From: a virus
Taxonomy: Duplodnaviria; Caudoviricetes
Length of the DNA: 64,000 nt
Direction: 5' to 3' (one strand)
IMG/VR virus record: IMGVR_UViG_3300032167_000004
Location: 64,001 to 128,000 of that record
The notes under the pieces are model-generated. The model was not told where the DNA came from and did not search any database. It saw only the letters and a program-made list of their open reading frames with translations. The position numbers and the translations under genes are program-made. The first letter of the stretch is position 1. Every line of letters begins with the position of its first letter. This document shows, piece by piece, positions 3,562 to 24,782 of the stretch.

Positions 3562-4770
3562 ATGGTAGTTTTAAAAGAAGAATATAAACAGATGTTATTA
3601 AAAATGAAACCTGATGATATTACTTCAGATTTTGTTTTTGAATATTTGGCAGATACATCTAAAAAAGTAAATGGTAAATTAGTTCAAGTTCCTAGTAAAA
3701 TTAAAACATATGATACATTTACTTTAAAAAAAGGTGAATATTTTAATACAGAAACTATCACTACTAATGTAGGATTATTTATATTTAATAAATTTCTTAT
3801 TGAAGAATCATTTAGTAAAGTAGTTGGTTATATTAATACTCCTGTTAATGCTAAAATACAGAAAAATATTGAAGCTAAAATTAGCCAGGCTTTATTAGAT
3901 GATATCATTACTGTAGAAGAAATGGTTAAATATTTAAATAAATTACAATGGTTATCTAAAGAATTTAATGCTGTTTTTTCTGGTTCTTTTACAATGAAAA
4001 CTTTAAAACCTGTTCCTAAGGTTATGAAACACAAAGAAAAACTTGTAAAAGAAAATAAAGAAGCATTAGATAAAGGTGATATTGCTGTAGCAGTTAATAT
4101 TGAAAAAGAGTTATTAGATATGGCACGAGAAGAGTTAAAAGGTGATCCTGGAATGGATTTATATAACTCAGGGGCTCGTGGTTCTTTTGATAATAACTAT
4201 AAAAATATAGCTGTTATTAAAGGACCTGTATATAATCCTGTTACAGATAAATATGACTTTGTTTCTTCTAACTTTATGGAAGGAATTAAAAAGGAAGAAA
4301 TTCCTATTGTAGCTAATAGTATTCCCGCTGGAGCATATCCGAAAGCAGTCGGAACACAAACCGGAGGCTACTACAACAAACAGATTTCCGCAGCATTTCA
4401 AGGTGTTGTTTTAGATAAACAAGGATCTGATTGTGGTACTAAATTAACTCTTGAAGTATTACTTACTGATTCTAATAAATCTCAATTCTTACATAGATAT
4501 ATTGTATCTGGTAGTAATTTAATTTTATTAGATAGTAATAATATTGATAAGTATATTAATAAAAAAGTAAAATTTAGATCACCTATGTTCTGTAAAGGTG
4601 ATAAATTATGTAGTAAGTGTGCAGGTATTCTTTATTATAAATTAGGTATTGAGAATATAGGTTTAACTGCTACCAAATTGGCTGGTACATTATTGAATCT
4701 TAATATGAAAAAATTCCATAATAGTACAGCTAATATTAAAAAGATTGATCTTAATGAAATTGACTTATAA
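3562..4770 (+). CDS. RNA polymerase beta'-like subunit, C-terminal half (probably virion RNAP, phiKZ gp80-like)
   Basis: beta' C-half motifs: SGARG, GTQTGGY (TADSGY-like), DCGT, RSPMFC...CSKCAG Zn site, NIG...MKKFH trigger-loop-like. Confidence 0.85.
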   Translation: MVVLKEEYKQMLLKMKPDDITSDFVFEYLADTSKKVNGKLVQVPSKIKTYDTFTLKKGEYFNTETITTNVGLFIFNKFLIEESFSKVVGYINTPVNAKIQKNIEAKISQALLDDIITVEEMVKYLNKLQWLSKEFNAVFSGSFTMKTLKPVPKVMKHKEKLVKENKEALDKGDIAVAVNIEKELLDMAREELKGDPGMDLYNSGARGSFDNNYKNIAVIKGPVYNPVTDKYDFVSSNFMEGIKKEEIPIVANSIPAGAYPKAVGTQTGGYYNKQISAAFQGVVLDKQGSDCGTKLTLEVLLTDSNKSQFLHRYIVSGSNLILLDSNNIDKYINKKVKFRSPMFCKGDKLCSKCAGILYYKLGIENIGLTATKLAGTLLNLNMKKFHNSTANIKKIDLNEIDL

Positions 4771-4775
4771 TTATA

Positions 4776-4804
4776 AGAGAGTATAGGAAATCCCTATACT
4801 CTCT
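4776..4804 (+). terminator. Intrinsic terminator
   Basis: AGAGAGTATAGG/CCTATACTCTCT hairpin plus T-run. Confidence 0.7.
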
Positions 4805-4823
4805 ATTTTTTATTATATTTTTT

Positions 4824-11271: not shown

Positions 11272-11646
11272 ATGATTACTAAAATTATTTTATATATTAT
11301 TTCAATTATAATTATGATTCGTATTTTATCTAAGAAATGTAAGAAATATTTAATTTTATTATGTGGTGTCATTTTATTATCAATTATTATAATATTAGCA
11401 TCATCTACAGAAAACGATCTTAATTCACTTGTTGGTGATGCTGAACTTATTGGTACTTATGAAAATCTTGGTACTATATATTATGATGAAAATGATAATA
11501 TGTATTTTGTTATTAATGTTAATCCCTGGAATTTATTTGAATCATTTAAGAAAACTGATATAGATTATAATTTAGGTGAAATAGCACACATCGCTTCACA
11601 TATTACAAATGAAATGGAAAATCTTATTGAAAGTTATTATAAATAA
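11272..11646 (+). CDS. Two-TM membrane protein, paralog of 9444
   Basis: Hydrophobic N-terminus, shared C-terminal motif. Confidence 0.65.
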   Translation: MITKIILYIISIIIMIRILSKKCKKYLILLCGVILLSIIIILASSTENDLNSLVGDAELIGTYENLGTIYYDENDNMYFVINVNPWNLFESFKKTDIDYNLGEIAHIASHITNEMENLIESYYK

Positions 11647-11674
11647 CTTTTTATTATACTACTAACATATATTT

Positions 11675-11756
11675 AGGTAGATTTTTCTTTTTTCCTTTCT
11701 TTCTTTTGTGTAAGAGAGGTATAAATAATAATTCCAATAAAATTATACCTCTCTTA
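11675..11756 (+). ncRNA. Candidate sRNA A: pyrimidine tract plus 14-bp hairpin
   Basis: AACA-N6-TA at 11664-11675, 26-nt U/C tract 11682-11707, stem 11711-11724/11743-11756, no ORF. Confidence 0.4.
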
Positions 11757-11831
11757 ATATTAAATTTAATTTTTTTATTAACATTCATTTAGAAGGAAAA
11801 TTTTACCATATTATAAAGGAGATATTAATTT

Positions 11832-11954
11832 ATGAAGAATCTTAAAGTTCTTAAGACTGAAAACCGTATTCATGCTCTTACTCAGAGAGATCCTGTTATT
11901 AATAAGAATATTATTAATAAATTGAAGAGAACTTTACGTAATATTAAAAATTAA
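11832..11954 (+). CDS. 40-aa basic peptide (not in ORF track)
   Basis: Late motif 11780-11791, AAAGGAG RBS, MKNLKVLKTENRIHALTQRDPVINKNIINKLKRTLRNIKN. Confidence 0.65.
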   Translation: MKNLKVLKTENRIHALTQRDPVINKNIINKLKRTLRNIKN

Positions 11955-11980
11955 TTATTTATATAACATATATTTATTAG

Positions 11981-12197
11981 GTATATAGATCTGGTTCCAT
12001 CAGTAAATAGTTGATGGGTAAAGAGACGGAATATACATATTGTATTAATCTTTTCCATGATCTTTATATATACATTATAAGAGAGTGAAATAGTAATTAT
12101 CTGGTATATATTCCATTCATTAATGGAGAGTGAAGTACATTAATGATACAGCTTGCCTGGAACCGTTCACTATAATCTAGTAGTAACTCTCTTATAA
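11981..12197 (+). ncRNA. Candidate structured RNAs B (11981-12073) and C (12075-12197)
   Basis: Late motif 11965-11976; B closed by GTATA-AGATC/GATCT-TATAC arms, C closed by 12-bp TTATAAGAGAGT/ACTCTCTTATAA with inner TCATTAATG/CATTAATGA stem; no ORF. Confidence 0.5.
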
Positions 12198-12269
12198 ATT
12201 AAATTTAATTATTTATATAACATTTATTTATAGAAGTAAAATAATCTTTTGATTATTTTATATACATAT

Positions 12270-12378
12270 GGGTCTTATAAGTGATTTACATAGCTTGCCT
12301 TCCTTTGATTTGTCTGGTTCAGCATCCTTCCAACTCATAGGATATGAAATCATCGCTGGTTAAGTTCAGCAAAGACCC
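12270..12378 (+). ncRNA. Candidate structured RNA D
   Basis: Late motif 12219-12230; closing GGGTCTT/AAGACCC, inner GTGATTT/AAATCAT and ATCCT/AGGAT stems; GC-enriched. Confidence 0.5.
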
Positions 12379-12388
12379 CCTCTTTCTG

Positions 12389-12631
12389 TTTTCCGGGAAG
12401 GGTGAGAGAAAAAAGGAATTCGTTCATAGTAAAAAATATTAAATTAAGAAACATTTTATGATGTCACCGCCATAGATGTCATTTTATCATATGATTTTGC
12501 CTGCCTGTCTGCAGTTTGCCGTCAATGACTGCATTCCCGCGCCATTACGTTGATACCTCCATCCCCTGTTTCTTAGTAATCCATACTGTATTTAATATTT
12601 TTTGGGTTTCTTTTAATCCCTTCCCGGAAAA
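12389..12631 (+). ncRNA. Candidate structured RNA E (~243 nt)
   Basis: Nested stems 12389-12402/12618-12631 (14 bp), 12431-12444/12590-12603 (14 bp), 12445-12453/12567-12575 (9 bp) enclosing a GC-rich domain; strand inferred from flanking promoter motifs. Confidence 0.55.
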
Positions 12632-12707
12632 TTCAAATTATTTTTTGAATATATATTATTGATATAACATATAAGTAAATATAATATTAATTTATGTTTT
12701 GTAATAC

Positions 12708-12794
12708 CCCGGGTTGGCGGAATAGGTAGACGCAAGGGACTTAAAATCCCTCGCTGGCGACAGCGTACCAGTTCGAAGCTGGTATCCGGGACCA
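12708..12794 (+). tRNA. tRNA-Leu(UAA)
   Basis: Cloverleaf CCCGGGT/ATCCGGG, anticodon arm AGGGA-CTTAAAA-TCCCT, long variable arm, TTCGA T-loop, encoded CCA. Confidence 0.95.
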
Positions 12795-12800
12795 TGAAAA

Positions 12801-12838
12801 TCCCGACTACAGAGGAAAATATAAATCTGTAGTCGGGA
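12801..12838 (+). terminator. Hairpin after tRNA-Leu
   Basis: TCCCGACTACAGA/TCTGTAGTCGGGA plus Ts. Confidence 0.6.
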
Positions 12839-12861
12839 TATTTTTATTAATTATATAATAT

Positions 12862-12937
12862 GGGTCCATAGCTCAGTTGGTAGAGCAACGCCCTTTTAAG
12901 GCGTGGGTCAGCAGTTCGAGCCTGCTTGGACTCACCA
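12862..12937 (+). tRNA. tRNA-Lys(UUU)
   Basis: 76-nt cloverleaf GGGTCCA/TGGACTC, ACGCC-CTTTTAA-GGCGT, CCA end. Confidence 0.95.
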
Positions 12938-12946
12938 CTCCATTAT

Positions 12947-12978
12947 ATCCCTATACTGGTATGTCCAGTATAGGGATT
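12947..12978 (+). terminator. Hairpin after tRNA-Lys
   Basis: ATCCCTATACTGG/CCAGTATAGGGAT. Confidence 0.6.
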
Positions 12979-13013
12979 ATTATTTGTCAAATTTTAAGAA
13001 AGGAAAATAAAGA

Positions 13014-13823
13014 ATGCTAAATATTGTTATTAATACACCTACAGACAGAGGTATATATACTGATATATATGCTATTGATGAAAGAGATAAATACTATCAT
13101 CAATTATATCATGCAAGATGTAAGGTATGTGGAACTGAAATAAAAAGTCGTTTAATAGATATTAATCGTAAAAATTCAGTATGTGTACATAAATATATTA
13201 AAACATTTATACGAGATTATCGTATAAATAAAATATTTCAAGGAATGAAACGTAGATGCTATGATAAACACGATAAAGCTTATAGAATGTATGGTGCTAA
13301 AGGAATAACAATTTGTGATGAATGGTTATATACTCCATATAAATTTGAAGAATGGTCGTTACAAAATGGATATCAAGATGATTTAACAATAGACAGAATA
13401 GATTCATCAAAAGGATATTCACCAGATAATTGCAGATGGATTGACTCTGAAACTAATTCTAAATATAAAAAATCCACTAAAGTATTATATGTTAATGGTA
13501 TGGGATTAAGTATGAGGGATTGGTCTAAAGTTATGGGACATGCCAATCATTATATATCAAAATATAATAAAAAACATGGTGAAAAAGCTACTATTCATTT
13601 GATTAGAAAATATATAAGACAACATAAATCATCTTCTGAAAGAATGTTAATGCAATTACATCCTTTTATTCTTAATGAAAAAGATAAATATTATAATATT
13701 GATATAAATCATCCTAGTATTGAAACTGAAACTACTCTTGATAAAATTACTGATTATATTAAGAATAATAAAGTTCCTGTAGATGAGAATGGTTATTATA
13801 ATATTAATATTAAAGTGAATTGA
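13014..13823 (+). CDS. Free-standing HNH homing endonuclease
   Basis: MKRRC...YGAKGITIC.EW...LTIDRIDSSKGYSPDNCRW signature. Confidence 0.85.
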   Translation: MLNIVINTPTDRGIYTDIYAIDERDKYYHQLYHARCKVCGTEIKSRLIDINRKNSVCVHKYIKTFIRDYRINKIFQGMKRRCYDKHDKAYRMYGAKGITICDEWLYTPYKFEEWSLQNGYQDDLTIDRIDSSKGYSPDNCRWIDSETNSKYKKSTKVLYVNGMGLSMRDWSKVMGHANHYISKYNKKHGEKATIHLIRKYIRQHKSSSERMLMQLHPFILNEKDKYYNIDINHPSIETETTLDKITDYIKNNKVPVDENGYYNINIKVN

Positions 13824-13849
13824 TAATATTGAAAGGGAAATAATAAAAA

Positions 13850-14263
13850 ATGGATAATCATAATATTGTATTAGCTAGATTAAGAGCATTGAATATGTTT
13901 GCTCGTTATGGTATTTGTACATATGATACATCATATAGAAAGGTTAATAATGATGTTATTATTGGAGATTTTATTAAATATTTAATTAAATTTCAATTAA
14001 TTATCGGTGATACTAAAAATAATACACTGATATTTAAAATTCCTAAAAATGAAGGTTCTCATATTGATTATTTTATTTTATATGATAATGTAAAAGATAG
14101 ACTTTTTATGGTTAAAAATAATGACCGTTGTAATAAAATCAAAATTTGTTATAAAAAAGTCGATATGGATAATAATGAAAATACATTATTTTATAGTAAT
14201 CATGAATTTGAACACATTATTGAATCAATTATTACTAAAGTATTTACATGTAGTCATAGTTAA
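13850..14263 (+). CDS. Hypothetical protein
   Basis: 137 aa, GAAAGGGA RBS. Confidence 0.55.
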   Translation: MDNHNIVLARLRALNMFARYGICTYDTSYRKVNNDVIIGDFIKYLIKFQLIIGDTKNNTLIFKIPKNEGSHIDYFILYDNVKDRLFMVKNNDRCNKIKICYKKVDMDNNENTLFYSNHEFEHIIESIITKVFTCSHS

Positions 14264-14377
14264 TAACAAATAATTATACATATAACATATAAATATAGGG
14301 TTCTAATTTTTAGAACCCAAATTAAAAATAATTAATACTATAACATAATATTAGAGAAGGTATTAAATATTATATAC

Positions 14378-14454
14378 GGGCCTGTAGTTCAGTTGGTTAG
14401 AACCCTTGGCTCATAACCGAGTTGTCGCGAGTTCGAAGCTTGCCAGGCCTACCA
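14378..14454 (+). tRNA. tRNA-CAU, most likely Ile2 (lysidine-modified, reads AUA)
   Basis: 77-nt cloverleaf; GGGCCTG acceptor is Ile-like; lacks initiator features (C1:A72 mismatch, three G-C anticodon pairs); CCA end. Confidence 0.85.
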
Positions 14455-14467
14455 AAATACATATCAT

Positions 14468-14727
14468 GGTGCATTTCATGCATCACCAAAAAAATCCTTA
14501 GTACCAACCAAGGATGGTTCCTTATCTCTGAGCCTCTCCTATGTGAGAGCAATGCAGAAGAATAGAGTCTGGTCTTTCTTAATCCTTCTCCCAGACTCTA
14601 TTCATTTTTTACATATGGGGTAAATTTTATCCCCGCCCATCAAGTCAAGCGTTTGAATATAGAGACCCTACATATTGTTATATTCAAACAACCCTTACAA
14701 CCCCATAATAGGATATCCTATTATGGG
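14468..14727 (+). ncRNA. Array of hairpins with C/U-rich loops downstream of tRNA-CAU
   Basis: 13-bp stem 14560-14572/14591-14603, TATGGGGT/ACCCCATA-closed unit with inner GTTTGAATATA/TATATTCAAAC stem, terminal palindrome 14702-14727; no ORF. Confidence 0.45.
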
Positions 14728-14770
14728 TCTATATTTAAAATTTTTCATATTGTATAAAGGAGAATAAAAT

Positions 14771-15020: not shown

Positions 15021-17179
15021 ATGAAGAGAATTGAGAAATTAAAAGAACAGTTTAGTTATTTTAGTGAATCACATCTCATAGAAACATTATGTCCATATGA
15101 TATTGATAAAGAATTAGAAAATTGTGATAAAGAAACACTTAGACTTAAACATGAACCTCCTGCATTTAAATCAGGTTGTAGAGGAATAACCTGTGAAGAA
15201 TGTTGGGATAAAGAATTATACTAAAGAGGATATTAAAATGGAAATGTATTGTATTGAAGGTACTGATTATGATGAAAATATTATTGTTATCGGTTATACA
15301 ACAACAGAAGAAAAAGCTAAAAGAATGGTTGAAGTTATGAGAGAAACCGATAGATTCGATTCTTATTATGAATATAAATATCGTAAAATTTATGTCGATA
15401 TGTTAATTATTAATGATAAAAAGATTGAATTTTGATTTTATATAAGAGGAAATATATTAATATGGAAAATACTATTGAAGAAATTTATGAAATTCTTATA
15501 AATAAAGAATATTGTATAACTGAACATGATGCTGGAAAAATTGAAGGTGATGATTCTCATACCGTATTAGATATTAGTATGTTAAATACTGCTAATGCAA
15601 TATTTTGGGATGGTTATATATGGAATTTAGTATTCGGACTATATTCACATACATATAAAAAATTTATTGCATGTAATCATGCATCATTAAATGATATTAT
15701 TAATGATGACAATATCTATTTAATTATAAGTGTAGAAAGTGCAGAAGTTAATAGAAATTGTACTGTTAAATTATCTTATATAAAAAATAAAATTATTGAT
15801 AAAAGGGTAGAAGGAAATAAATGTATATTTAAATTGAAAACTGTAGGAATCGATAGAAAGAAAGAAGAAGATAATAGTATAAATATTAAAGTTCCTGAAT
15901 GGTGTAAAATAGGTAAACGAGTGTATTGGAATTCACCACGAATTACAGGAATGGAATGGGTTAGAGAAAGAATCTTAGGATATGGATTAGATGGATTCTT
16001 TCATAGTGGTGGTAATACGCCAGTATATTATAGTAAATTTTCAGAATTCGGTAAAACTGTTATGTTAGAAGAACCAGATAAAAATTTATATAGAGGGATG
16101 TCGTATTATGAGTATATATGAAAATATGAGCTCACAACCATATAGAGATATTAATAATGATGTAGAATCTGAACCTAAGAAACATACAAGAGAAGCTTTA
16201 ATGAGGTATATGAATAAAGATAAGAAACGTTCATATACTAAAAAGACTAATTTTACATATGAAGAAATTGCAAAATCTTTAATTATTCTTATGGATAATG
16301 GAATTGATCCGGATGATGCTTGTGGAGTATTAACTGCTATAGGACATAGTTTATTAGATATTGAGATTTTTAAGAATATTGATCAATATATATTAGGTGA
16401 TACAATTACAACTCTTAGATCAAAAGAGGTATAATGATGAAAGTAGATTTATATTATTATGAACAACATGTTCATTTTCAATATATACAACAGATTTTTC
16501 CTGATACTGATCATGAATTAAAACCAACTTATATAGGATATATTGAAGTTGAAAAATTTGATCTAGAAGAAATATTTCATTTATGCAATTGGAGTCATTG
16601 GTTACCTGAAAAACCTGTAAATTTATATTCTAAAATTAAATCTTGTGGTCATGGGTTAATGATGATTAATCCAGAAAATAATCAAAGATATCTAGCAAAA
16701 TCTATGGGTTGGTTAATAGGTAATGAAGATACTATAAATAAATATGTGGAAGAAAATAGATATCGATTATATTGGAGATAATAATGTTACTACTTATTGG
16801 TGTTAATTGTTATGTTACAATATGTGTATCATTTTTAGATACAACGATTATTAAACCTATATTTCCTAAAACAGATGATGGTGTTATAAAAGTTGATAGT
16901 GAACTTATACGAGGTGGAGATTCATATAAATATATTTTAACTGTTAAATTAGATATATCAGAGTATAATCTTCATAAACATAATTTATCAGAATATGTAA
17001 AAATAAAAGCTAAGGATCATGAATTGTATAAGGAAAGAATACAATGGTGTGTTAAAGAATATGGTAAAGGTAGAGAATATAACGTATATACATCATTTGA
17101 TGATCATGATTTAAATTTAAGAGATTATGTATATAAAGATGGAAAAGGTAATATAATATTAAGGAATTATTATGGATAA
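15021..17179 (+). CDS. Run of six hypothetical genes (15021-15224, 15238-15435, 15462-16121, 16108-16434, 16434-16781, ~16784-17179)
   Basis: Tightly packed ORFs with GAGG RBSs ending at terminator 17176-17208. Confidence 0.6.
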
Positions 17180-17233
17180 AAGAGAGATAATAATTATCTC
17201 TCTTTTATTTTTTTTCGTTTATTTATATATTAT

Positions 17234-20427: not shown

Positions 20428-23400
20428 ATGAGCAAAAATAATAATACAGGTGTCCAATTAGAGAAACTTAATTGGGATAAAGAATGTGAATTAGATCTTA
20501 TGTTAGGTCGAGGATTCATTGTTTCTGAACCTGCAATTACTGGTAAAGACACTAAGTCTATGTATGGTATCCAATCACCTCTGTTTGCATCTGATTGGTC
20601 AGATGGAGAAGATGCATTCGCTGACCGTTTTAAATGTGCATGTGGTGCTATGAAAGGTAAAATTTTCGAAGGAGAAATTTGTCCTGAATGTAAAACTAAG
20701 ATTGAGTTTAGGGATGTCGATCTTAGCTATACCGGCTGGATAGTCATTAATAATCATAAGATTATTCAACCTATTTATTATAATAAATTAGCATCTATTA
20801 TTGGTAATAAAACTTTTAATGAAATTATTAAATATGATAAGTTTATCGATAGAGATGGACATGTACAAGAAAAGACAACAGATAGTAATCCTTTTAGAGG
20901 AATTGGATTGATTGAATTTAGAGAAAGATTCCAAGAGATATTGGATTATTATAAAGTAAAGAAAAAGAATAAATGGGAAGAAATCAGAGAGATTGAAGAA
21001 GATAAAGATAAAGTATTTACTTCATGTATTCCTGTGTTCAGTTCCGTAAATCTTTAATGCGGCTATATAAAGTGATTTATATAGTGAACTCTTTTAATTG
21101 CTGGGAACTCTAGAAATAGACAATCAGCAGCCAACCCTATAAATTGCATAATAATTAATTTAAAGAAGGTGTTTTAAATACTTTTTGAACGTATAGTTGA
21201 AATATTTTTACCATTTTATTACGAAGGTAAAAAGACAATATATCTTGTCAGTGATGCTGGTAGAATTATGAATGGTAAAAGTGGTAGAATATTAAAAACT
21301 CGTATAGAGAAAGATTATGAACGTGTTGGTTTATCACTTAATGGTGTAGATAAAGATTTTTCTGTACATCGTTTAGTGGCAATGGTATTTATTCCTAACC
21401 CTGAAAATAAACCAACAGTAAATCATATTAATATTCATAATTTAAGTGCTGCAGAAAATAAACAAGATAATTGTATTGAAAATCTCGAATGGGCAACATA
21501 TCCAGAACAAGCTGAACATGCTCTGAGAACTAAATTACGAGAACCATTACGAGGTGAAGATAATCCTGCAGCAAAATTAACTGAAGAAGATGTTAAAAAT
21601 ATATCAATGATATTTACAATGAATGAATTAACTATTTCAGAAATAGCAACTCTATTTAAAGTAGATTATGAAACAATACGTGATATATATTGTGGTAATA
21701 CATGGAGACATATTACATGTGACTATGATTTCAGTAATTATACTAAATTAGGTTGTGAAATATATACTGATGAACAAATTCATCATGTATGTAGATTTCT
21801 GGAAGAAAATAAATTACTGGTTTCAGAAATATCTAAAGAAACAGGTGTTGATGAATTCAATATTAGACATATTATAAGGAAAGATTCATGGTTACGAATT
21901 TCTAATAATTATAATATATCTAATTATGATAAAATTAGACCTGTTACAAAAAACACTGAAGAACAAATTCATCATGTGTGTAAATTATTAGAAGAAAATA
22001 AATTAACATTACATGAGATTTCTGATATAACTAGTGTAAAATATAAAGTAGTTAATGCCATTCTTAACGGTAAAAATTGGAAACATATCTCTTCACTATA
22101 TAATATCAACTATACCGCATTTGAGATTAAAAAATAAAAAAAATAATTATGCATTTTATAGGAAGGTTCAACGACTATTAAGTACATCCTAATGTAGATG
22201 GAAATGGAGAGCATCTTTAATAATAAGATGAAGATATAGTCTAGTCTTTATAGAAATATAAAGAAGTTCTATATAGAGAACTGTATAAGAGTAACGATCT
22301 TATATGAATATAACAATTAAGACCAGTGTCGTTCAGAAATGATAGTTTCTTTTATTCGACGATTGATAAGAAATACAATAGTATATTCTCGTCTGCACGT
22401 CTGTTAAATGATACAGACTTGTATGAAAAGAGAAGAAAGAAATGGACAAAGGAAAAAAGAGAAAGAATGGACATTGCTACTATTCTTTCAACAATTCAGG
22501 AAAAATTAATGCAGTTATGGGAATTAGTATTCGACCTTATAAACCAGAAGGATGGATTCATAAAATCGGAGATACTCGGTGGAATAAAACTAATTGTTCC
22601 TATACATAGTAATATGTATATAAAACTTTCTTAATTGCTGGGACATCATATATGGACAATCAGCAGCCAAGACTATCTAAAAAGATAGTAAGGTTCAACG
22701 ACTATTAGATTCAAGTGAATCATAATGGAAAGCTCCTTTTAATAAAAGGATGAAGATATAGTCTAATCTTTATAGTAATATAAAGCTGTTATTAAATTAA
22801 CGATATAAGAGTAATGAACTTATATGAATATTATTGGATTAATTTCTCTAGCCGTTGTAAAAATAATGCAACGTAACTCTTTTAATTGCTGGAAAGTCTA
22901 GAAATAGATAATCAGCATCCAAGACTATCTAAAAAAGATAGTAAGGTTCAACGACTATTAGATTCAAGTGAATCATAATGGAGAGCAACTTATTATAATA
23001 AGTTGAAGATATAGTCTAATCTTTATAGTAATATAAAGCTGTTATTAAATTAACGATATAAGAGTAATGAACTTATATGAATATTATTGGTTATTATTCC
23101 TGATCCTGAATTGAAAGCAGATGAAGTAAAACTTAACTATATGGCATTAAATTAAAAGTGTCCTCATATAGTAATATATGATGTAAAAACTTTCTTAATT
23201 GCTGGGAAATCCTATACGGACAATCAGCAGCGAATACTCTTTATAAAAAAATATAAAAAGGAGATACAGTATGAAATACGAATTTACGATAAAACCTATA
23301 GAAGGAGAAACCTATACTATATTAAAAGATATTGATGGTAATGATACTGAATTTTTAATTAGTAAAAATGGTTATATTACACCTTCTAATACTATCATTG

Positions 23401-24782
23401 TTGAAATATGGAAACCTATTTTTATAAATGGTGAAAAAACTCATTATTTGATCAGTGACTATGGTAGAATCAAAAATTCAAAAAAGAATAAAATACTTAA
23501 ACCTAAAACAAATGCATATTGGGGATATAAACAAGTTGATTTATCTATACATAATGTAAAGTATCAGTGTAAAGTTCATAGATTAGTAGCAGAAGCTTTT
23601 ATTCATAATCCTGGAAATAAAAAGACTGTAGACCATATAATTGTAACTTCTCCAAGTGAGATTGGTAAAGCTATTAATACAGTATTTAATTTACGATGGG
23701 CTACTCAAGAAGAACAAGCTAAATATGCTATTTCGTCTGGAGCTAGACATGGTGTTAAAGGATCTAAAAATCATCTTGCTAAAATGGATGAATTAATGGC
23801 ACATGCAATTTGCAAAGAAATTGTAAAATATGAGTTATCTATTATTGAGATTAGTAAAAAATTAAATATTCCGTCGCATACTATAACAGATATTTTAGAT
23901 AAAAGATCTTGGATACATATATCATCAAATTATGATATTGATAGATCTAGAATACCTTCTAGTAGAAGAGGATTAGACAAAGAAGATTTATTTAAAATAT
24001 TTAAGTTGCGAGATGATGGATATACTTATAAATATATTGCTGATCAGATTGATAATAAGATAACATCAGGTGCTATAAGAGATATGATGAATCGACCCGG
24101 TAGTTATAAAAAAGAAAAAGAAGAATATGCATTATTATATAAAAATAATAAAGAGTAACGTTCAACGACTAATATATCTGTGTAAGATAGTAATAGAAAG
24201 TATCCTATTCATCAAATAGGATAATGATATAGTCTAATCTTTATAGTAATATAAAGCAGTTATTAAAATAACGGTGTAAGATTAACAATCTTATATGAAT
24301 AAAATGTTTTGGAACTTTATAAGTACGAGATAATCGCATATCTCGTTAAGATGGCAGGTATTACTGAAAATGAAGCCTATGAAGCTTGGTTTAAAGCCCG
24401 TATAGTTTATAATCCTAAAATTTATGAAGTAATGAATTTTATTCTTAAGAAAAGAAAGCCTAAGATCCTGATTAATCGTAACCCCACGATTAATTATGGG
24501 TCCTTGCTTTGTGTTAAGATTAAATCTATTAAGAACGAGTTTTCTGAAGATTACACGATGAGTATGCCACTGCAGATTTTAAGTGTACTGAACGCTGACT
24601 TCGACGGAGATATTCTGAATATTATTAGTCTGAAAACAAAAGCTTTAGAAAAAGAATATAATAAGATTTTTAATCCTAGATTAAATCTCTTTGTTAGTAG
24701 AAATGATGGCATGTTCAATAGTGATGTATCTTTGTTTAAAGATGAAATTATTGGATTGTGGTCCTTTAATAATATTGAATAA
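20428..24782 (+). CDS. Catalytic RNA polymerase beta'-like subunit, N-terminal half (non-virion RNAP, AR9 gp270/phiKZ gp55-like); spliced, join(20428..21047,22316..22585,22837..22858,23090..23147,24307..24782), 481 aa
   Basis: Joined exons (1446 nt) are in frame and restore the CxCG/CPEC Zn finger, IPVFSSVLRP, ILGGMINFSSRCVIIP, AFLELYK, NRNPT and NADFDGD. Confidence 0.9.
21048..22315 (+). mobile_element. Group I intron 1 with HNH endonuclease; terminal nucleotide A
   Basis: P1 CCGU/GCGG with U-G, AATTGCTGGGAA (P), AATCAGCAG (Q), GTTCAACGACTA (R), AAGATATAGTCT (S); P10 TTAAT pairs with exon ATTAA. Confidence 0.9.
21178..22137 (+). CDS. Intron-encoded NUMOD4-HNH homing endonuclease with C-terminal HTH repeats
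   Basis: VHRLVA..FIPNPENKPTVNHIN...DNCIENLEW; frame open from ATA 21178 (after AAGAAGGTG), encoding NUMOD4 EIF.P...YLVSDAGR; first ATG at 21268. Confidence 0.85.
   Translation: MLFERIVEIFLPFYYEGKKTIYLVSDAGRIMNGKSGRILKTRIEKDYERVGLSLNGVDKDFSVHRLVAMVFIPNPENKPTVNHINIHNLSAAENKQDNCIENLEWATYPEQAEHALRTKLREPLRGEDNPAAKLTEEDVKNISMIFTMNELTISEIATLFKVDYETIRDIYCGNTWRHITCDYDFSNYTKLGCEIYTDEQIHHVCRFLEENKLLVSEISKETGVDEFNIRHIIRKDSWLRISNNYNISNYDKIRPVTKNTEEQIHHVCKLLEENKLTLHEISDITSVKYKVVNAILNGKNWKHISSLYNINYTAFEIKK
22586..22836 (+). mobile_element. Group I intron 2 (251 nt, no ORF)
   Basis: P1 GGAAU/GUUCC, P/Q/R/S elements, terminal G, P10 TAATT:GATTA. Confidence 0.9.
22859..23089 (+). mobile_element. Group I intron 3 (231 nt, no ORF)
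   Basis: P1 CGUUGU/GCAACG, P/Q/R/S elements, terminal G, P10 AATAAT:GTTATT. Confidence 0.9.
23148..24306 (+). mobile_element. Group I intron 4 with HNH endonuclease
   Basis: P1 GGCAU/GUGUC, P/Q/R/S elements, terminal G24306, P10 TTAAAA:TTTTGG. Confidence 0.9.
23271..24158 (+). CDS. Intron-encoded NUMOD4-HNH homing endonuclease
   Basis: EIWKPI...YLISDYGR, VHRLVAEAFI.NP..KKTVDH...NLRW; AAAGGAG RBS; inserted in P6 loop. Confidence 0.85.
   Translation: MKYEFTIKPIEGETYTILKDIDGNDTEFLISKNGYITPSNTIIVEIWKPIFINGEKTHYLISDYGRIKNSKKNKILKPKTNAYWGYKQVDLSIHNVKYQCKVHRLVAEAFIHNPGNKKTVDHIIVTSPSEIGKAINTVFNLRWATQEEQAKYAISSGARHGVKGSKNHLAKMDELMAHAICKEIVKYELSIIEISKKLNIPSHTITDILDKRSWIHISSNYDIDRSRIPSSRRGLDKEDLFKIFKLRDDGYTYKYIADQIDNKITSGAIRDMMNRPGSYKKEKEEYALLYKNNKE

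What the first reader, a model, noticed from the sequence alone, without database searches (positions are those of the whole stretch)
11664..12631. Cluster of unannotated, separately promoted structured RNAs beside the tRNA island
Seen: about 1 kb with only a 40-aa ORF holds four AACA-N6-TA late motifs (11664, 11780, 11965, 12219), two of them within the same 19-nt TTAATTATTTATATAACAT block. They precede five end-paired units (A 11675-11756, B 11981-12073, C 12075-12197, D 12270-12378, E 12389-12631); B-E are richer in GC than the genome. By eye none resembles tRNA, tmRNA, RNase P or SRP. Inference: a late-expressed phage sRNA set (antisense silencers, protein sponges or defence decoys). This is the best candidate for an undescribed system in the window.
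Basis: partly seen in the sequence, partly recalled or inferred. Interest (0 to 1): 0.85.

Follow-up and report, generated by a model that had tools for sequence, protein, structure and literature searches.

The report
Late non-coding RNA cassette beside phage tRNAs
A gut jumbo phage related to Bacillus phage AR9 carries, just upstream of its tRNA genes, a 1-kb non-coding stretch with five late-type promoters and several folded RNA-like units; one unit is conserved with compensatory base changes, one looks like a remodelled tRNA, and the rest vary from strain to strain, so it resembles the unexplained small stable RNAs in phage T4's tRNA region more than a new kind of system.

Summary
The observation largely holds. 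Window 11664-12677 has no credible ORF except a conserved 40-aa gene. It holds five AACA-N6-TA motifs, the AR9 late-promoter consensus (0.2 expected; P about 3e-6). No unit matches Rfam or ARAGORN.

Evidence differs by unit:
- **A:** well supported. Its promoter 17-mer is invariant in six diverged relatives. Its 14-bp hairpin is 100% paired, with 4 compensatory and 3 G.U pairs.
- **D:** has a perfect 7-bp acceptor-like stem and a T-arm-like hairpin, and aligns end to end with a relative's tRNA(CAU) (2/300 shuffles reach the score). It is probably a remodelled tRNA.
- **E:** holds the strongest long-range inverted repeat in the 264-kb genome (z -4.8). It shares strand-specific sequence blocks, including an unpaired CCUCC, with a differently arranged structured unit at the same locus in another lineage.
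- **B and C:** fold no better than chance. B shrinks to a 5' hairpin in one relative.

The whole B-E block is missing in another relative, so it is accessory. No covariation could be obtained for B-E, and no transcript ends are known.

Best reading: a late, multi-promoter stable-RNA and tRNA operon, comparable to T4 RNAC/RNAD. Function is untested. Interest is moderate.

This scan has only untested first-reader notes on this stretch, and none on other DNA.

The parts
11664..11675 (+). Late-type promoter P1 (AACA-N6-TA, predicted +1 at 11675)
   Evidence: The 17-mer AACATATATTTAGGTAG is invariant in 6 diverged variants. The consensus matches the AR9 late promoter.
11675..11756 (+). Unit A: about 80-nt RNA made of a C/U-rich single strand (invariant TTCCTTTCT) and a 14-bp hairpin (11711-11756)
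   Evidence: z -2.95. The hairpin is 100% paired in 6 variants, with 4 pairs changed on both sides and 3 G.U pairs that fit only the + strand.
11759..11770 (.). Palindrome ATTAAATTTAAT between the A hairpin and P2; repeated at 12198-12209 after unit C
   Evidence: Conserved in L157, L158 and L160. Function unknown.
11780..11791 (+). Late-type promoter P2 for the 40-aa gene
   Evidence: AACA and TA are kept while N6 differs in L153, L157 and L158.
11832..11954 (+). 40-aa basic protein gene with a Shine-Dalgarno sequence (AAAGGAG)
   Evidence: Homologues at 74-93% identity in five clusters. No Pfam, PHROG or Atlas match.
11965..11976 (+). Late-type promoter P3, inside the 19-nt block shared with P4
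11981..12073 (+). Unit B: three-way junction closed by an A/U-rich stem; probably an expanded 5'-proximal hairpin
   Evidence: z -1.9. L158 has only a 33-nt hairpin here (z -3.6). The distal arm is replaced in L159.
12075..12197 (+). Unit C: 11-bp closing stem (TATAAGAGAGT/ACTCTCTTATA) around a 9-bp hairpin
   Evidence: z -2.0. 91% identical in L158, but the closing stem gains a mismatch and there is no compensatory change.
12219..12230 (+). Late-type promoter P4
12236..12261 (+). 5'-proximal leader hairpin of the P4 transcript
   Evidence: z -4.4. An equivalent hairpin follows the promoter in L157.
12270..12378 (+). Unit D: tRNA-like RNA with a 7-bp acceptor-like stem (GGGTCTT/AAGACCC), a T-arm-like hairpin (12355-12370) and a long irregular arm
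   Evidence: z -2.8. Aligns end to end with the tRNA(CAU) of relative G002, score 27.5 against 17.3 +/- 3.2 (2/300 shuffles). Not called a tRNA by Rfam or ARAGORN. 41% GC.
12389..12631 (+). Unit E: 243-nt rod with three perfect nested helices (14, 14 and 9 bp) around a GC-rich core with unpaired CCUCC
   Evidence: z -4.8. Best long-range GC-bearing inverted repeat in the genome. Shares + strand blocks with the L153 unit. A 298-nt contig from an RNA library covers 12323-12621.
12647..12677 (+). Early-type promoter (GAATATATATTAT) overlapping late-type promoter P5, both upstream of tRNA-Leu
   Evidence: AR9 early consensus.
12708..12794 (+). tRNA-Leu(UAA), followed by a hairpin and T-run terminator at 12797-12845
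12862..12937 (+). tRNA-Lys(UUU), followed by a terminator at 12947-12977

Best explanation
The stretch is a late-expressed, multi-promoter non-coding RNA cassette fused to the phage's tRNA operon.

**Proposed layout**
- The phage's non-virion RNA polymerase starts at AACA-N6-TA promoters.
- P1 makes unit A, an RNA of about 80 nt with a C/U-rich single strand and a stable hairpin.
- P2 makes the mRNA of a conserved 40-aa basic protein.
- P3 makes B plus C.
- P4 makes a 5' hairpin, D and E, and probably reads on into tRNA-Leu up to the strong terminator at 12797-12845.

**Proposed processing**
- The 5'-proximal hairpins protect the transcripts.
- The closing stems are processing handles. RNase P and RNase Z would act at the tRNA-like D and at tRNA-Leu. 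RNase III would act at the roughly 23-bp stem of E.
- The units would then accumulate as small stable RNAs, as RNAC and RNAD do in the T4 tRNA cluster.

**Proposed activity**
- Exposed C/U-rich, anti-Shine-Dalgarno-like motifs pair with purine-rich ribosome-binding sites late in infection. In A the motif is UUCCUUUCU. In E and the L153 unit it is GAUA|CCUCC.

**Shown**
- The stretch is non-coding.
- The promoter motifs are clustered and conserved.
- The A hairpin covaries.
- D has tRNA-like anatomy.
- E is exceptionally folded, and its sequence blocks are conserved.

**Inferred**
- Transcription starts and ends, processing, stability and any trans-acting role.
For: - **Promoters:** 5 motifs in 1.1 kb against 0.21 expected. 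Genome-wide copies precede Shine-Dalgarno-plus-ATG sites. The consensus equals AR9's late consensus with +1 at the final A, and AR9's tRNA is a late gene. The same extended block precedes single tRNA genes in relative G002. AACA and TA are invariant while N6 varies.
- **Non-coding status:** no ORF over 48 aa. Near-identical strains differ by single-base indels in E.
- **Unit A:** 14/14 pairs kept in 6 variants, with 4 compensatory pairs and G.U pairs that fit only the + strand. In relatives the upstream gene has its own terminator ahead of P1, so A is its own unit.
- **Unit D:** the acceptor-like and T-like stems are kept relative to G002's tRNA(CAU) by paired changes. The full-length alignment is reached by 2/300 shuffles. 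Its leader ...TATATACATAT|GGG resembles the leaders of the true tRNAs.
- **Unit E:** z -4.8. The helices are perfect while the loops between them are unrelated, which argues for selection on pairing rather than a recent inverted duplication. Shared 9-mers with the L153 unit number 14, against 1.6 +/- 1.8 expected, on the + strand only. CCUCC is unpaired with P about 0.9 in both.
- **GC content:** D/E and the stretch after tRNA-Met are the only non-tRNA, non-ORF windows with GC >= 0.45 in 264 kb.
- **Strain variants:** 7-8 of the 9 strain differences listed in units A, B, D and E fall at predicted unpaired positions.
- **5' hairpins:** P3, P4 and the late-type promoter at 14284 are each followed by a hairpin at +4 to +7.
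- **RNA library:** in one metatranscriptome the only phage-specific contig in 4.3 kb is 12323-12621. This is a weak hint, because DNA carry-over is possible.
Against: - No homologue of B, C (beyond about 90% relatives), D or E was found in 13 related jumbo-phage records, by BLAST or by a covariance model of D.
- B-E are absent in L157. B and C are reduced or altered in L158, which has a protein-coding ORF downstream of C' in place of D and E. They are therefore dispensable and turn over fast.
- B and C fold no better than about 2% of shuffles. C' in L158 has z -1.3 and a new mismatch in the closing stem.
- No canonical intrinsic terminator ends any of A-E.
- A's C/U tract pairs no better with early than with late ribosome-binding sites, and no better than shuffled versions of itself.
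- The motif order differs between E and the L153 unit, so their homology is only block-wise.
- The tRNA covariance model does not recognise D even in a 141-nt search. The D-tRNA alignment is one positive among 16 unit-by-strand tests.
- The RNA-library contig could be DNA, and GC-richer DNA assembles preferentially at low depth.
Confidence: 0.55

Rival explanations
1. Evolutionary debris at a recombination hot spot. On this view the tRNA island gains and loses cassettes. B-E are decaying remnants of tRNA genes, duplicated promoter/terminator modules and foreign inserts. They are transcribed, if at all, only because they lie in the tRNA operon, and they have no function of their own.
For: - Relative G002 has four extra tRNA genes (Thr, Ser, Ser, Asn), two of the three spacers ahead of Ser, Ser and Asn carrying a copy of the same promoter block, exactly where B-E lie.
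- D aligns with a tRNA(CAU) but no longer folds as a cloverleaf.
- B-E are absent in L157, B and C are altered in L158 (D and E replaced there by an ORF), and L153 has a different two-domain unit at the same locus.
- The promoter, palindrome and leader modules are duplicated within the stretch.
- An HNH endonuclease gene is inserted between tRNA-Lys and tRNA-Met here but not in L153 or L157.
- B and C are not significantly structured.
Against: - In a 28% GC genome, neutral GC-rich DNA should decay. D/E are among only four GC-rich non-coding islands, and the others are tRNAs or adjoin tRNA-Met.
- E keeps three perfect helices of 14, 14 and 9 bp while the intervening loops are unrelated.
- D's acceptor-like and T-like stems were kept by paired changes.
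- Sequence blocks are shared between E and the L153 unit, although the flanking gene is only about 72% identical.
- Strain variants avoid the stems.
- Unit A clearly covaries.
Confidence: 0.28
2. Purely cis-acting parts of the tRNA operon. On this view the hairpins and closing stems only stabilise and direct processing of a long late precursor that delivers tRNA-Leu, tRNA-Lys and tRNA-Met. The excised spacers are degraded and do nothing in trans.
For: - No terminator lies between P4 and tRNA-Leu.
- In L157 the equivalent late promoter and leader hairpin feed directly into the tRNAs.
- Three of the island's late promoters (P3, P4 and the one at 14284) are followed by a hairpin within a few bases of +1.
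- Long closing stems are typical RNase III handles (established for rRNA operons; inference here).
Against: - L157 matures the same tRNAs without B-E, so 650 nt of spacer is not needed for processing.
- Unit A lies upstream of a protein gene, not a tRNA, yet it is the best conserved element.
- The unpaired blocks conserved between E and the L153 unit are not explained by a processing role.
Confidence: 0.12
3. E is a DNA-level element: a foldback or MITE-like mobile insertion, or a cruciform or protein-binding site. It would not be an RNA gene.
For: - It has perfect 14-bp terminal inverted repeats.
- Both strands fold equally well (-63.9 and -65.1 kcal/mol).
- The homology with L157 resumes exactly at E's 3' end.
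Against: - The genome holds a single copy.
- None of 119 viral loci that share the 14-mer has the partner arm.
- No target-site duplication is visible.
- The arms are three separate perfect blocks split by unrelated loops, unlike a contiguous terminal inverted repeat.
- The extension of the outer helix uses G.U pairs that exist only on the + strand RNA.
Confidence: 0.05

Closest known systems
Bacteriophage T4 RNAC and RNAD (species 1 and 2 stable RNAs of the tRNA region)
   Same: Small non-coding RNAs encoded within a virulent phage's tRNA gene cluster, classed as late RNAs, and of unknown biological role (PMC3014915; PMC9697503). From my own knowledge, not tested here, they have paired termini and are matured with the tRNAs.
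   Different: No sequence comparison with T4 could be made here. The host clade (probably Bacillota), the polymerase (phage multisubunit nvRNAP rather than a modified host RNAP) and the promoter type all differ. There are more and larger units here (up to 243 nt). Each block has its own promoter.
AR9/PBS1-type late transcription units (nvRNAP promoter AACA-N6-TA/G)
   Same: The same consensus and spacing. This phage also shares AR9's early-promoter consensus. In AR9 the single tRNA gene is a late gene.
   Different: The AR9 transcriptome paper reports TSSs upstream of ORFs and one tRNA gene, and its text has no occurrence of 'noncoding'. Here five such promoters are packed in 1 kb of non-coding DNA.
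tRNA-like RNAs that keep an acceptor/T-arm minihelix (tmRNA tRNA-like domain, bacterial Y RNA YrlA, tRNA pseudogenes)
   Same: D has a perfect 7-bp acceptor-like stem next to a 5-bp T-like hairpin. It shows collinear similarity to a tRNA(CAU), and its anticodon/D region is remodelled into a long arm.
   Different: Rfam's tRNA, tmRNA and Y RNA models do not match. The T-loop has 6 nt instead of 7, and one base is unpaired between the two stems. No CCA is encoded. The phage has no Ro/TROVE protein.
C-rich, anti-Shine-Dalgarno sRNAs of Bacillota (RsaE/RoxS, FsrA, RNAIII loops)
   Same: Unpaired C/U-rich motifs are displayed next to stable helices: UUCCUUUCU in A, and CCUCC in E and the L153 unit.
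   Different: No sequence or Rfam relationship. There is no target specificity beyond what base composition gives. The resemblance is a lead from memory plus motif inspection only.

Membership tests
Any Rfam 15 family (including tRNA, tmRNA, RNase P, SRP, 6S, Y RNA, group I intron, ROOL/GOLLD) | Covariance-model match at or near the gathering score | tested here: not met
   Within 11300-14700 only the three tRNAs match at E <= 10. Weak snoRNA- or miRNA-type hits are chance. The same holds for the relatives' loci.
tRNA (unit D) | Cloverleaf recognised by ARAGORN or the RF00005 model | tested here: not met
   no call, even with relaxed ARAGORN or a 141-nt cmscan at E <= 10.
tRNA (unit D) | Sequence homology to a tRNA gene over its whole length | tested here: inconclusive
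   Best score is 27.5 with G002's tRNA(CAU), against 17.3 +/- 3.2 in shuffles (2/300 and 2/100). It is one positive among 16 unit-by-strand tests.
tRNA-like minihelix | 7-bp acceptor-like stem stacked on a 5-bp T-like stem-loop | tested here: met
   GGGUCUU/AAGACCC plus GCUGG-UUAAGU-UCAGC, with one unpaired A between them and a 6-nt loop.
AR9-type late promoter | AACA-N6-TA/G with the last base as the start site | tested here: met
   Sequence motif at five sites. It is clustered, conserved at AACA and TA among relatives, and found upstream of Shine-Dalgarno-plus-ATG sites genome-wide.
AR9-type late promoter | Transcription actually starts there, late, by nvRNAP | not testable with these tools
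   Only contigs of an RNA library were available. They cannot show starts or timing.
T4 RNAC/RNAD-type stable RNAs | Non-coding RNA gene inside a phage tRNA cluster | tested here: met
   Synteny with tRNA genes in relatives.
T4 RNAC/RNAD-type stable RNAs | Accumulates as a discrete stable RNA matured from a tRNA precursor | not testable with these tools
   No raw strand-specific reads. The single RNA-library contig at 12323-12621 is only a hint.
T4 RNAC/RNAD-type stable RNAs | Sequence or structure homology to T4 RNAC/RNAD | not tested
   No T4 RNAC/RNAD reference was compared. The phage-collection BLAST of 11600-12700 found nothing.
Intrinsic terminator (unit A hairpin) | GC-containing stem followed directly by a U-run | tested here: inconclusive
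   The stem is 14 bp and covaries. The tail is AAUAUUAAAUUUAAUUUUUUU and the loop is 18 nt, so the scan does not call it. nvRNAP termination rules are unknown.
MITE or foldback element (unit E) | Multiple copies and target-site duplication | tested here: not met
   Single copy. No paired arms in 119 other viral loci. No duplication at the ends.
Bacterial Y RNA / Ro system | Y RNA model match and a TROVE (Ro) protein partner | tested here: not met
   No Rfam hit. PF05731 is absent from the phage genome.

The most novel reading that the evidence does not exclude
AR9-like gut jumbo phages carry exchangeable cassettes of late, nvRNAP-driven scaffold RNAs in their tRNA islands. These would include a tRNA-derived RNA (D) and a rod-shaped RNA (E). 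They would display anti-Shine-Dalgarno-like motifs (CCUCC, UUCCUUUCU) to retune translation, or to decoy host factors that target tRNA or mRNA, late in infection. That would be an RNA-based takeover or counter-defence layer not yet described for phages with their own multisubunit polymerases.
Probability: 0.15. Interest if true: 0.75.

Novelty: new member of a known kind. Interest (0 to 1): 0.45.

Why it matters
Small RNAs of virulent phages are barely charted. T4's RNAC and RNAD have had no known role for decades (PMC3014915), and a dRNA-seq study of phiKZ could not confirm any phage sRNA and expected them late in infection (PMC8244752).

This locus offers concrete candidates in a polymerase-autonomous jumbo phage:
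- one conserved, covarying RNA (A);
- a tRNA turned into something else (D);
- an exceptionally folded 243-nt RNA (E).

All have predicted start sites. If they are expressed, they would show that the AR9-type late promoter drives non-coding genes, and that tRNA islands are nurseries for new RNAs.

If they are only debris, the locus still documents rapid cassette turnover at phage tRNA islands.

Tried and rejected
- **BLAST (distant mode) against 50,697 phage records:** no match for 11600-12700.
- **Flanking 130-aa protein as an anchor:** an ORFan. It has no relatives in viral contigs, and the protein search returned only itself. Its contigs are near-identical strains, differing at two bases in 6.5 kb, so they are useless for covariation.
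- **The 14-mer TTTTCCGGGAAGGG in viral contigs:** only chance hits, none with the partner arm.
- **Exact-pattern scans:** scans for the E core, the D 3' end, E/L153 motif pairs and the A promoter in viral and metagenome contigs gave nothing, or only chance AT-rich hits with no A-like unit or 40-aa ORF homologue.
- **BLAST of B-E and a covariance model of D (R1) against 13 related jumbo-phage records:** no hit other than the window itself. The same holds for the E motif pair.
- **Local alignment of the L153 unit to B-E:** at background level. Only k-mer sharing is significant.
- **tRNA ancestry of A, B, C, E, the post-Met stretch and the L153 domains:** not supported, |z| < 1.6. The exception is L153 domain 2 on the minus strand (z 2.3), taken as chance.
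- **A as a specific silencer of early genes:** duplex energies are the same for early and late ribosome-binding sites and for shuffled A.
- **The L158 gene downstream of C':** unrelated to D/E by tblastn, so D/E are not its remnant.
- **Sigma-70-type promoters:** not enriched (36 found against 29 +/- 6.5).
- **Ro/TROVE partner:** absent.
- **Atlas look-up of the 40-aa protein:** no lead.
- **Parts of the 4.3-kb stretch without cover in runs X19 and X23:** not interpreted. The joints that skip 11923-12669 and others have short sides (20-24 nt) and were used only as a pointer to the L157-type arrangement.
Full report
**Context**

The window is bases 64001-128000 of a 263,786-bp IMG/VR virus record with 28.3% GC. 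It encodes split multisubunit RNA polymerase genes whose closest named relatives are Staphylococcus and Bacillus jumbo phages, including AR9 and PBS1, at about 38-40% amino-acid identity. Near-identical DNA occurs in animal faecal and bovine gut metagenomes.

The phage uses AR9's promoter grammar. The AR9 early consensus AAATATATATTAT appears as (T)TAAA-TATATATTAT 66 times, mostly ahead of genes. AR9's late consensus is AACA-N6-TA/G with the last base as start site (PMC5312081). About 30 of the 98 AACAT-N5-TA copies here precede a Shine-Dalgarno sequence plus ATG.

**Checking the observation**

- All four motifs are at the stated coordinates, and a fifth lies at 12666. Five in 1.1 kb against 0.21 expected gives P = 2.8e-6.
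- The 19-nt block is exact at 11951 and 12205 and unique to these two sites.
- Between 11647 and 12707 the only credible gene is the 40-aa ORF.
- Rfam (gathering score, and E <= 10 with permissive filters) and ARAGORN find only tRNA-Leu, tRNA-Lys and tRNA-Met.
- Folding supports the drawn stems unevenly: E z -4.8, A -2.95, D -2.8, B -1.9, C -2.0.
- Only D (41% GC) and E (37%) stand out in GC content. Genome-wide, the only non-ORF 80-nt windows with GC >= 0.45 are D/E, the tRNAs and the stretch after tRNA-Met.
- E's 14-bp terminal repeat is, jointly with one 14-bp repeat at window 18048, the longest GC-bearing long-range inverted repeat in the genome.

**Finding relatives**

- DNA searches of the phage collection, of 13 related IMG/VR jumbo-phage records and of viral and metagenome contigs found no homologue of B-E. 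A covariance model of D found only itself.
- The upstream 130-aa gene is an ORFan, and its contigs are near-identical strains.
- The 40-aa ORF has homologues at 93-74% identity. Their contigs gave four informative lineages:
  - L159 (97% DNA identity) and L160 (90%) carry A, the ORF and B. L159 also carries C.
  - L158 (about 88%) has A and the ORF, B reduced to a 33-nt hairpin, C at 91% identity, and then a protein-coding ORF (unrelated to D/E) that begins about 45 nt downstream of C'.
  - L157 (about 80%) has A, the ORF and a late promoter with a leader hairpin. It then goes straight to an early promoter and tRNA-Lys, tRNA-Leu and tRNA-Met. The junction corresponds to window 11976|12629, so B-E are absent.
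  - L153 (ORF about 72-74% identical) has A, the ORF, then a different 376-nt GC-rich non-coding stretch, then tRNA-Leu, tRNA-Lys and tRNA-Met.
- A more distant relative (G002) has tRNA-Thr, Ser, Ser and Asn where B-E lie, two of the three spacers ahead of Ser, Ser and Asn carrying TTATTATTTA(T/G)ATAACAT.

The locus is therefore a hot spot of cassette turnover inside a tRNA island, and this promoter type serves stable-RNA genes.

**Unit A**

- The promoter plus start, AACATATATTTAGGTAG, is identical in six variants whose coding flanks are 72-97% identical.
- The C/U tract varies in length but keeps TTCCTTTCT.
- The 14-bp hairpin is paired in all 84 cells. Four pairs changed on both sides and three changed to G.U. 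All slid controls fall to 40-60% paired. The U.G and G.U pairs would be mismatches on the other strand, so the structure belongs to the + strand RNA.
- In relatives the upstream gene ends with its own terminator before P1, so A is an independent unit.
- Its tract is complementary to purine-rich ribosome-binding sites. However, duplex energies do not separate early from late sites, and shuffled tracts do as well. The pairing idea remains only a composition-level possibility.

**Units B and C**

- B's closing stem survives in L158 as a simple hairpin right after the start site (z -3.6). In L159 the distal arm is replaced.
- Together with the hairpins that follow P4 (12236-12261, z -4.4) and the promoter at 14284 (z -3.8), this suggests a promoter plus 5'-hairpin module. 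Protection from 5' exonuclease is my inference.
- C is conserved at background level (91%). It shows no compensatory change, has a new mismatch in its closing stem, and C' is not significantly folded (z -1.3).
- C's closing stem and the palindrome and promoter after it are a duplicate of the A hairpin/palindrome/P2 module.

**Unit D**

- D has a perfect 7-bp stem starting GGG, one unpaired A, and a 5-bp hairpin with loop UUAAGU. The rest forms a long irregular arm.
- The leader TATATACATAT|GGG resembles those before tRNA-Met (TTATATAC|GGG) and tRNA-Lys.
- A full-length alignment places G002's tRNA(CAU) collinearly within D: D arm, CTCATA anticodon loop, variable region, T arm and 3' acceptor. 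The score is 27.5 against 17.3 +/- 3.2 (2/300 shuffles).
- The acceptor (GGGCCTT/AAGGCCC to GGGTCTT/AAGACCC) and the T stem (CACGG/CCGTG to GCTGG/TCAGC) differ by paired changes.
- This is one hit among 16 tests, and the tRNA model rejects D.
- I therefore read D as probably tRNA-derived (about 65%), keeping only the acceptor/T minihelix.

**Unit E**

- E has three perfect helices (14, 14 and 9 bp) separated by unrelated, asymmetric loops. They enclose a 45% GC core.
- Its outer helix extends to about 23 bp with two G.U pairs.
- The L153 stretch at the same locus also folds strongly (z -4.6) into two end-paired domains.
- The L153 stretch is not alignable with E but shares + strand words far above chance: k=9 gives 14 against 1.6 +/- 1.8, and k=10 gives 7 against 0.5. 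The blocks are GATACCTCC, GCCTGCCTGTCTG, ATCCATACT and GATGTCACCG, partly in a different order.
- In both RNAs CCUCC is predicted unpaired (P about 0.9) next to a helix. ATCCATACT is wholly unpaired in E and about half unpaired in L153, and lies just before the 3' strand of a long A/U helix.
- E is single-copy, lacks target-site duplications and has no paired arms elsewhere, so a mobile foldback element is unlikely.

**Expression hints**

- Among near-identical strains, seven to eight of the nine listed differences in units A, B, D and E (substitutions and 1-4-nt indels) fall at predicted unpaired positions, roughly P = 0.003-0.01 by my rough estimate. The single-base indels in E confirm it is non-coding.
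- In a metatranscriptomic run the only phage-specific contig across 4.3 kb is a 298-nt piece covering 12323-12621. Contigs from low-depth DNA runs also favour this GC-richer part, so this is weak evidence.
- No canonical terminator ends B-E. Strong terminators follow tRNA-Leu, tRNA-Lys and the tRNA-Met region.

**Interpretation**

The best fit is a late stable-RNA and tRNA operon with internal promoters. A is a conserved small RNA. D is a tRNA-derived RNA. E is a selected, rod-like RNA. B is a 5' hairpin and C is of doubtful standing.

Maturation by tRNA- and rRNA-type nucleases and any anti-Shine-Dalgarno action are inferred.

The closest known case is the pair of small RNAs RNAC and RNAD from the T4 tRNA region. 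They are late RNAs and still without a known role.

The main rival is debris from cassette turnover (0.28). It explains B, C and the patchy distribution. It does not explain the GC richness, the perfect helices, the conserved unpaired blocks or the covariation in A.

**Verdict**

This is a real, non-random feature. Interest is 0.45.

Noticed in passing
window 14455-14745 (also L153:5926-6195, L157:1096-1352): The non-coding stretch after tRNA-Met is conserved in three lineages. It holds a terminator hairpin whose stem sequence differs between the three lineages but remains self-complementary, a GGGG..CCCC hairpin, a near-invariant block CCC(R)TCAA(R)TCAAGCGTTTGA, and a hairpin CCCATAATAGG..CCTATTATGGG that is identical in all three. 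GC reaches 51%. It may be another small RNA or a regulatory site.
   Followed up: partly
window 13014-14263: An HNH endonuclease gene (269 aa; PHROG 3377, E 3e-38) and a 137-aa ORF lie between tRNA-Lys and tRNA-Met. In L153 and L157 the three tRNAs are contiguous, so this is a lineage-specific insertion into the tRNA island.
   Followed up: partly
window 22576-22785 and 22835-23038: Two Rfam group I introns (84.6 and 83.7 bits) lie 50 nt apart, flanked by HNH endonuclease genes at 21268-22137 and 23271-24158. They probably interrupt a polymerase subunit gene, as in AR9.
   Followed up: no
window 12647-12660 and genome-wide: The AR9 early-promoter consensus (TAAA-TATATATTAT) occurs 66 times in this genome, mostly before genes. 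Many early leaders share a block of the type GAGAAGGAAAACTC...AACCAAGAAAGGAA. tRNA-Leu has both an early-type and a late-type promoter.
   Followed up: partly
window 11832-11954: The 40-aa basic protein (MKNLKVLKTENRIH...KRTLRNIKN) is conserved at 74-93% identity in five clusters. It always sits between unit A and the RNA/tRNA block and has no known family. It might be an RNA-binding partner.
   Followed up: partly
window 14284-14325: A late-type promoter (AACATATAAATA) is followed at +4 by a perfect 9-bp hairpin (GGGTTCTAA..TTAGAACCC) and then, 30 nt on, by another late promoter for tRNA-Met. It is either a very short transcript or a stabiliser module. L157 has an equivalent.
   Followed up: partly
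window 12150-12158, 12292-12300, 14432-14439: The GC-rich 9-mer AGCTTGCCT shared by C and D also occurs, as AGCTTGCC, at the T-stem/acceptor junction of the phage's own tRNA-Met. This hints that C also contains a tRNA fragment.
   Followed up: partly
window 4767-4813, 17151-17233, 11711-11756: Many hairpins after genes in this phage share the stem core AAGAGAG/CTCTCTT, including unit A and the closing stem of C. This may be a preferred terminator or a protein-binding stem for the phage polymerase.
   Followed up: no
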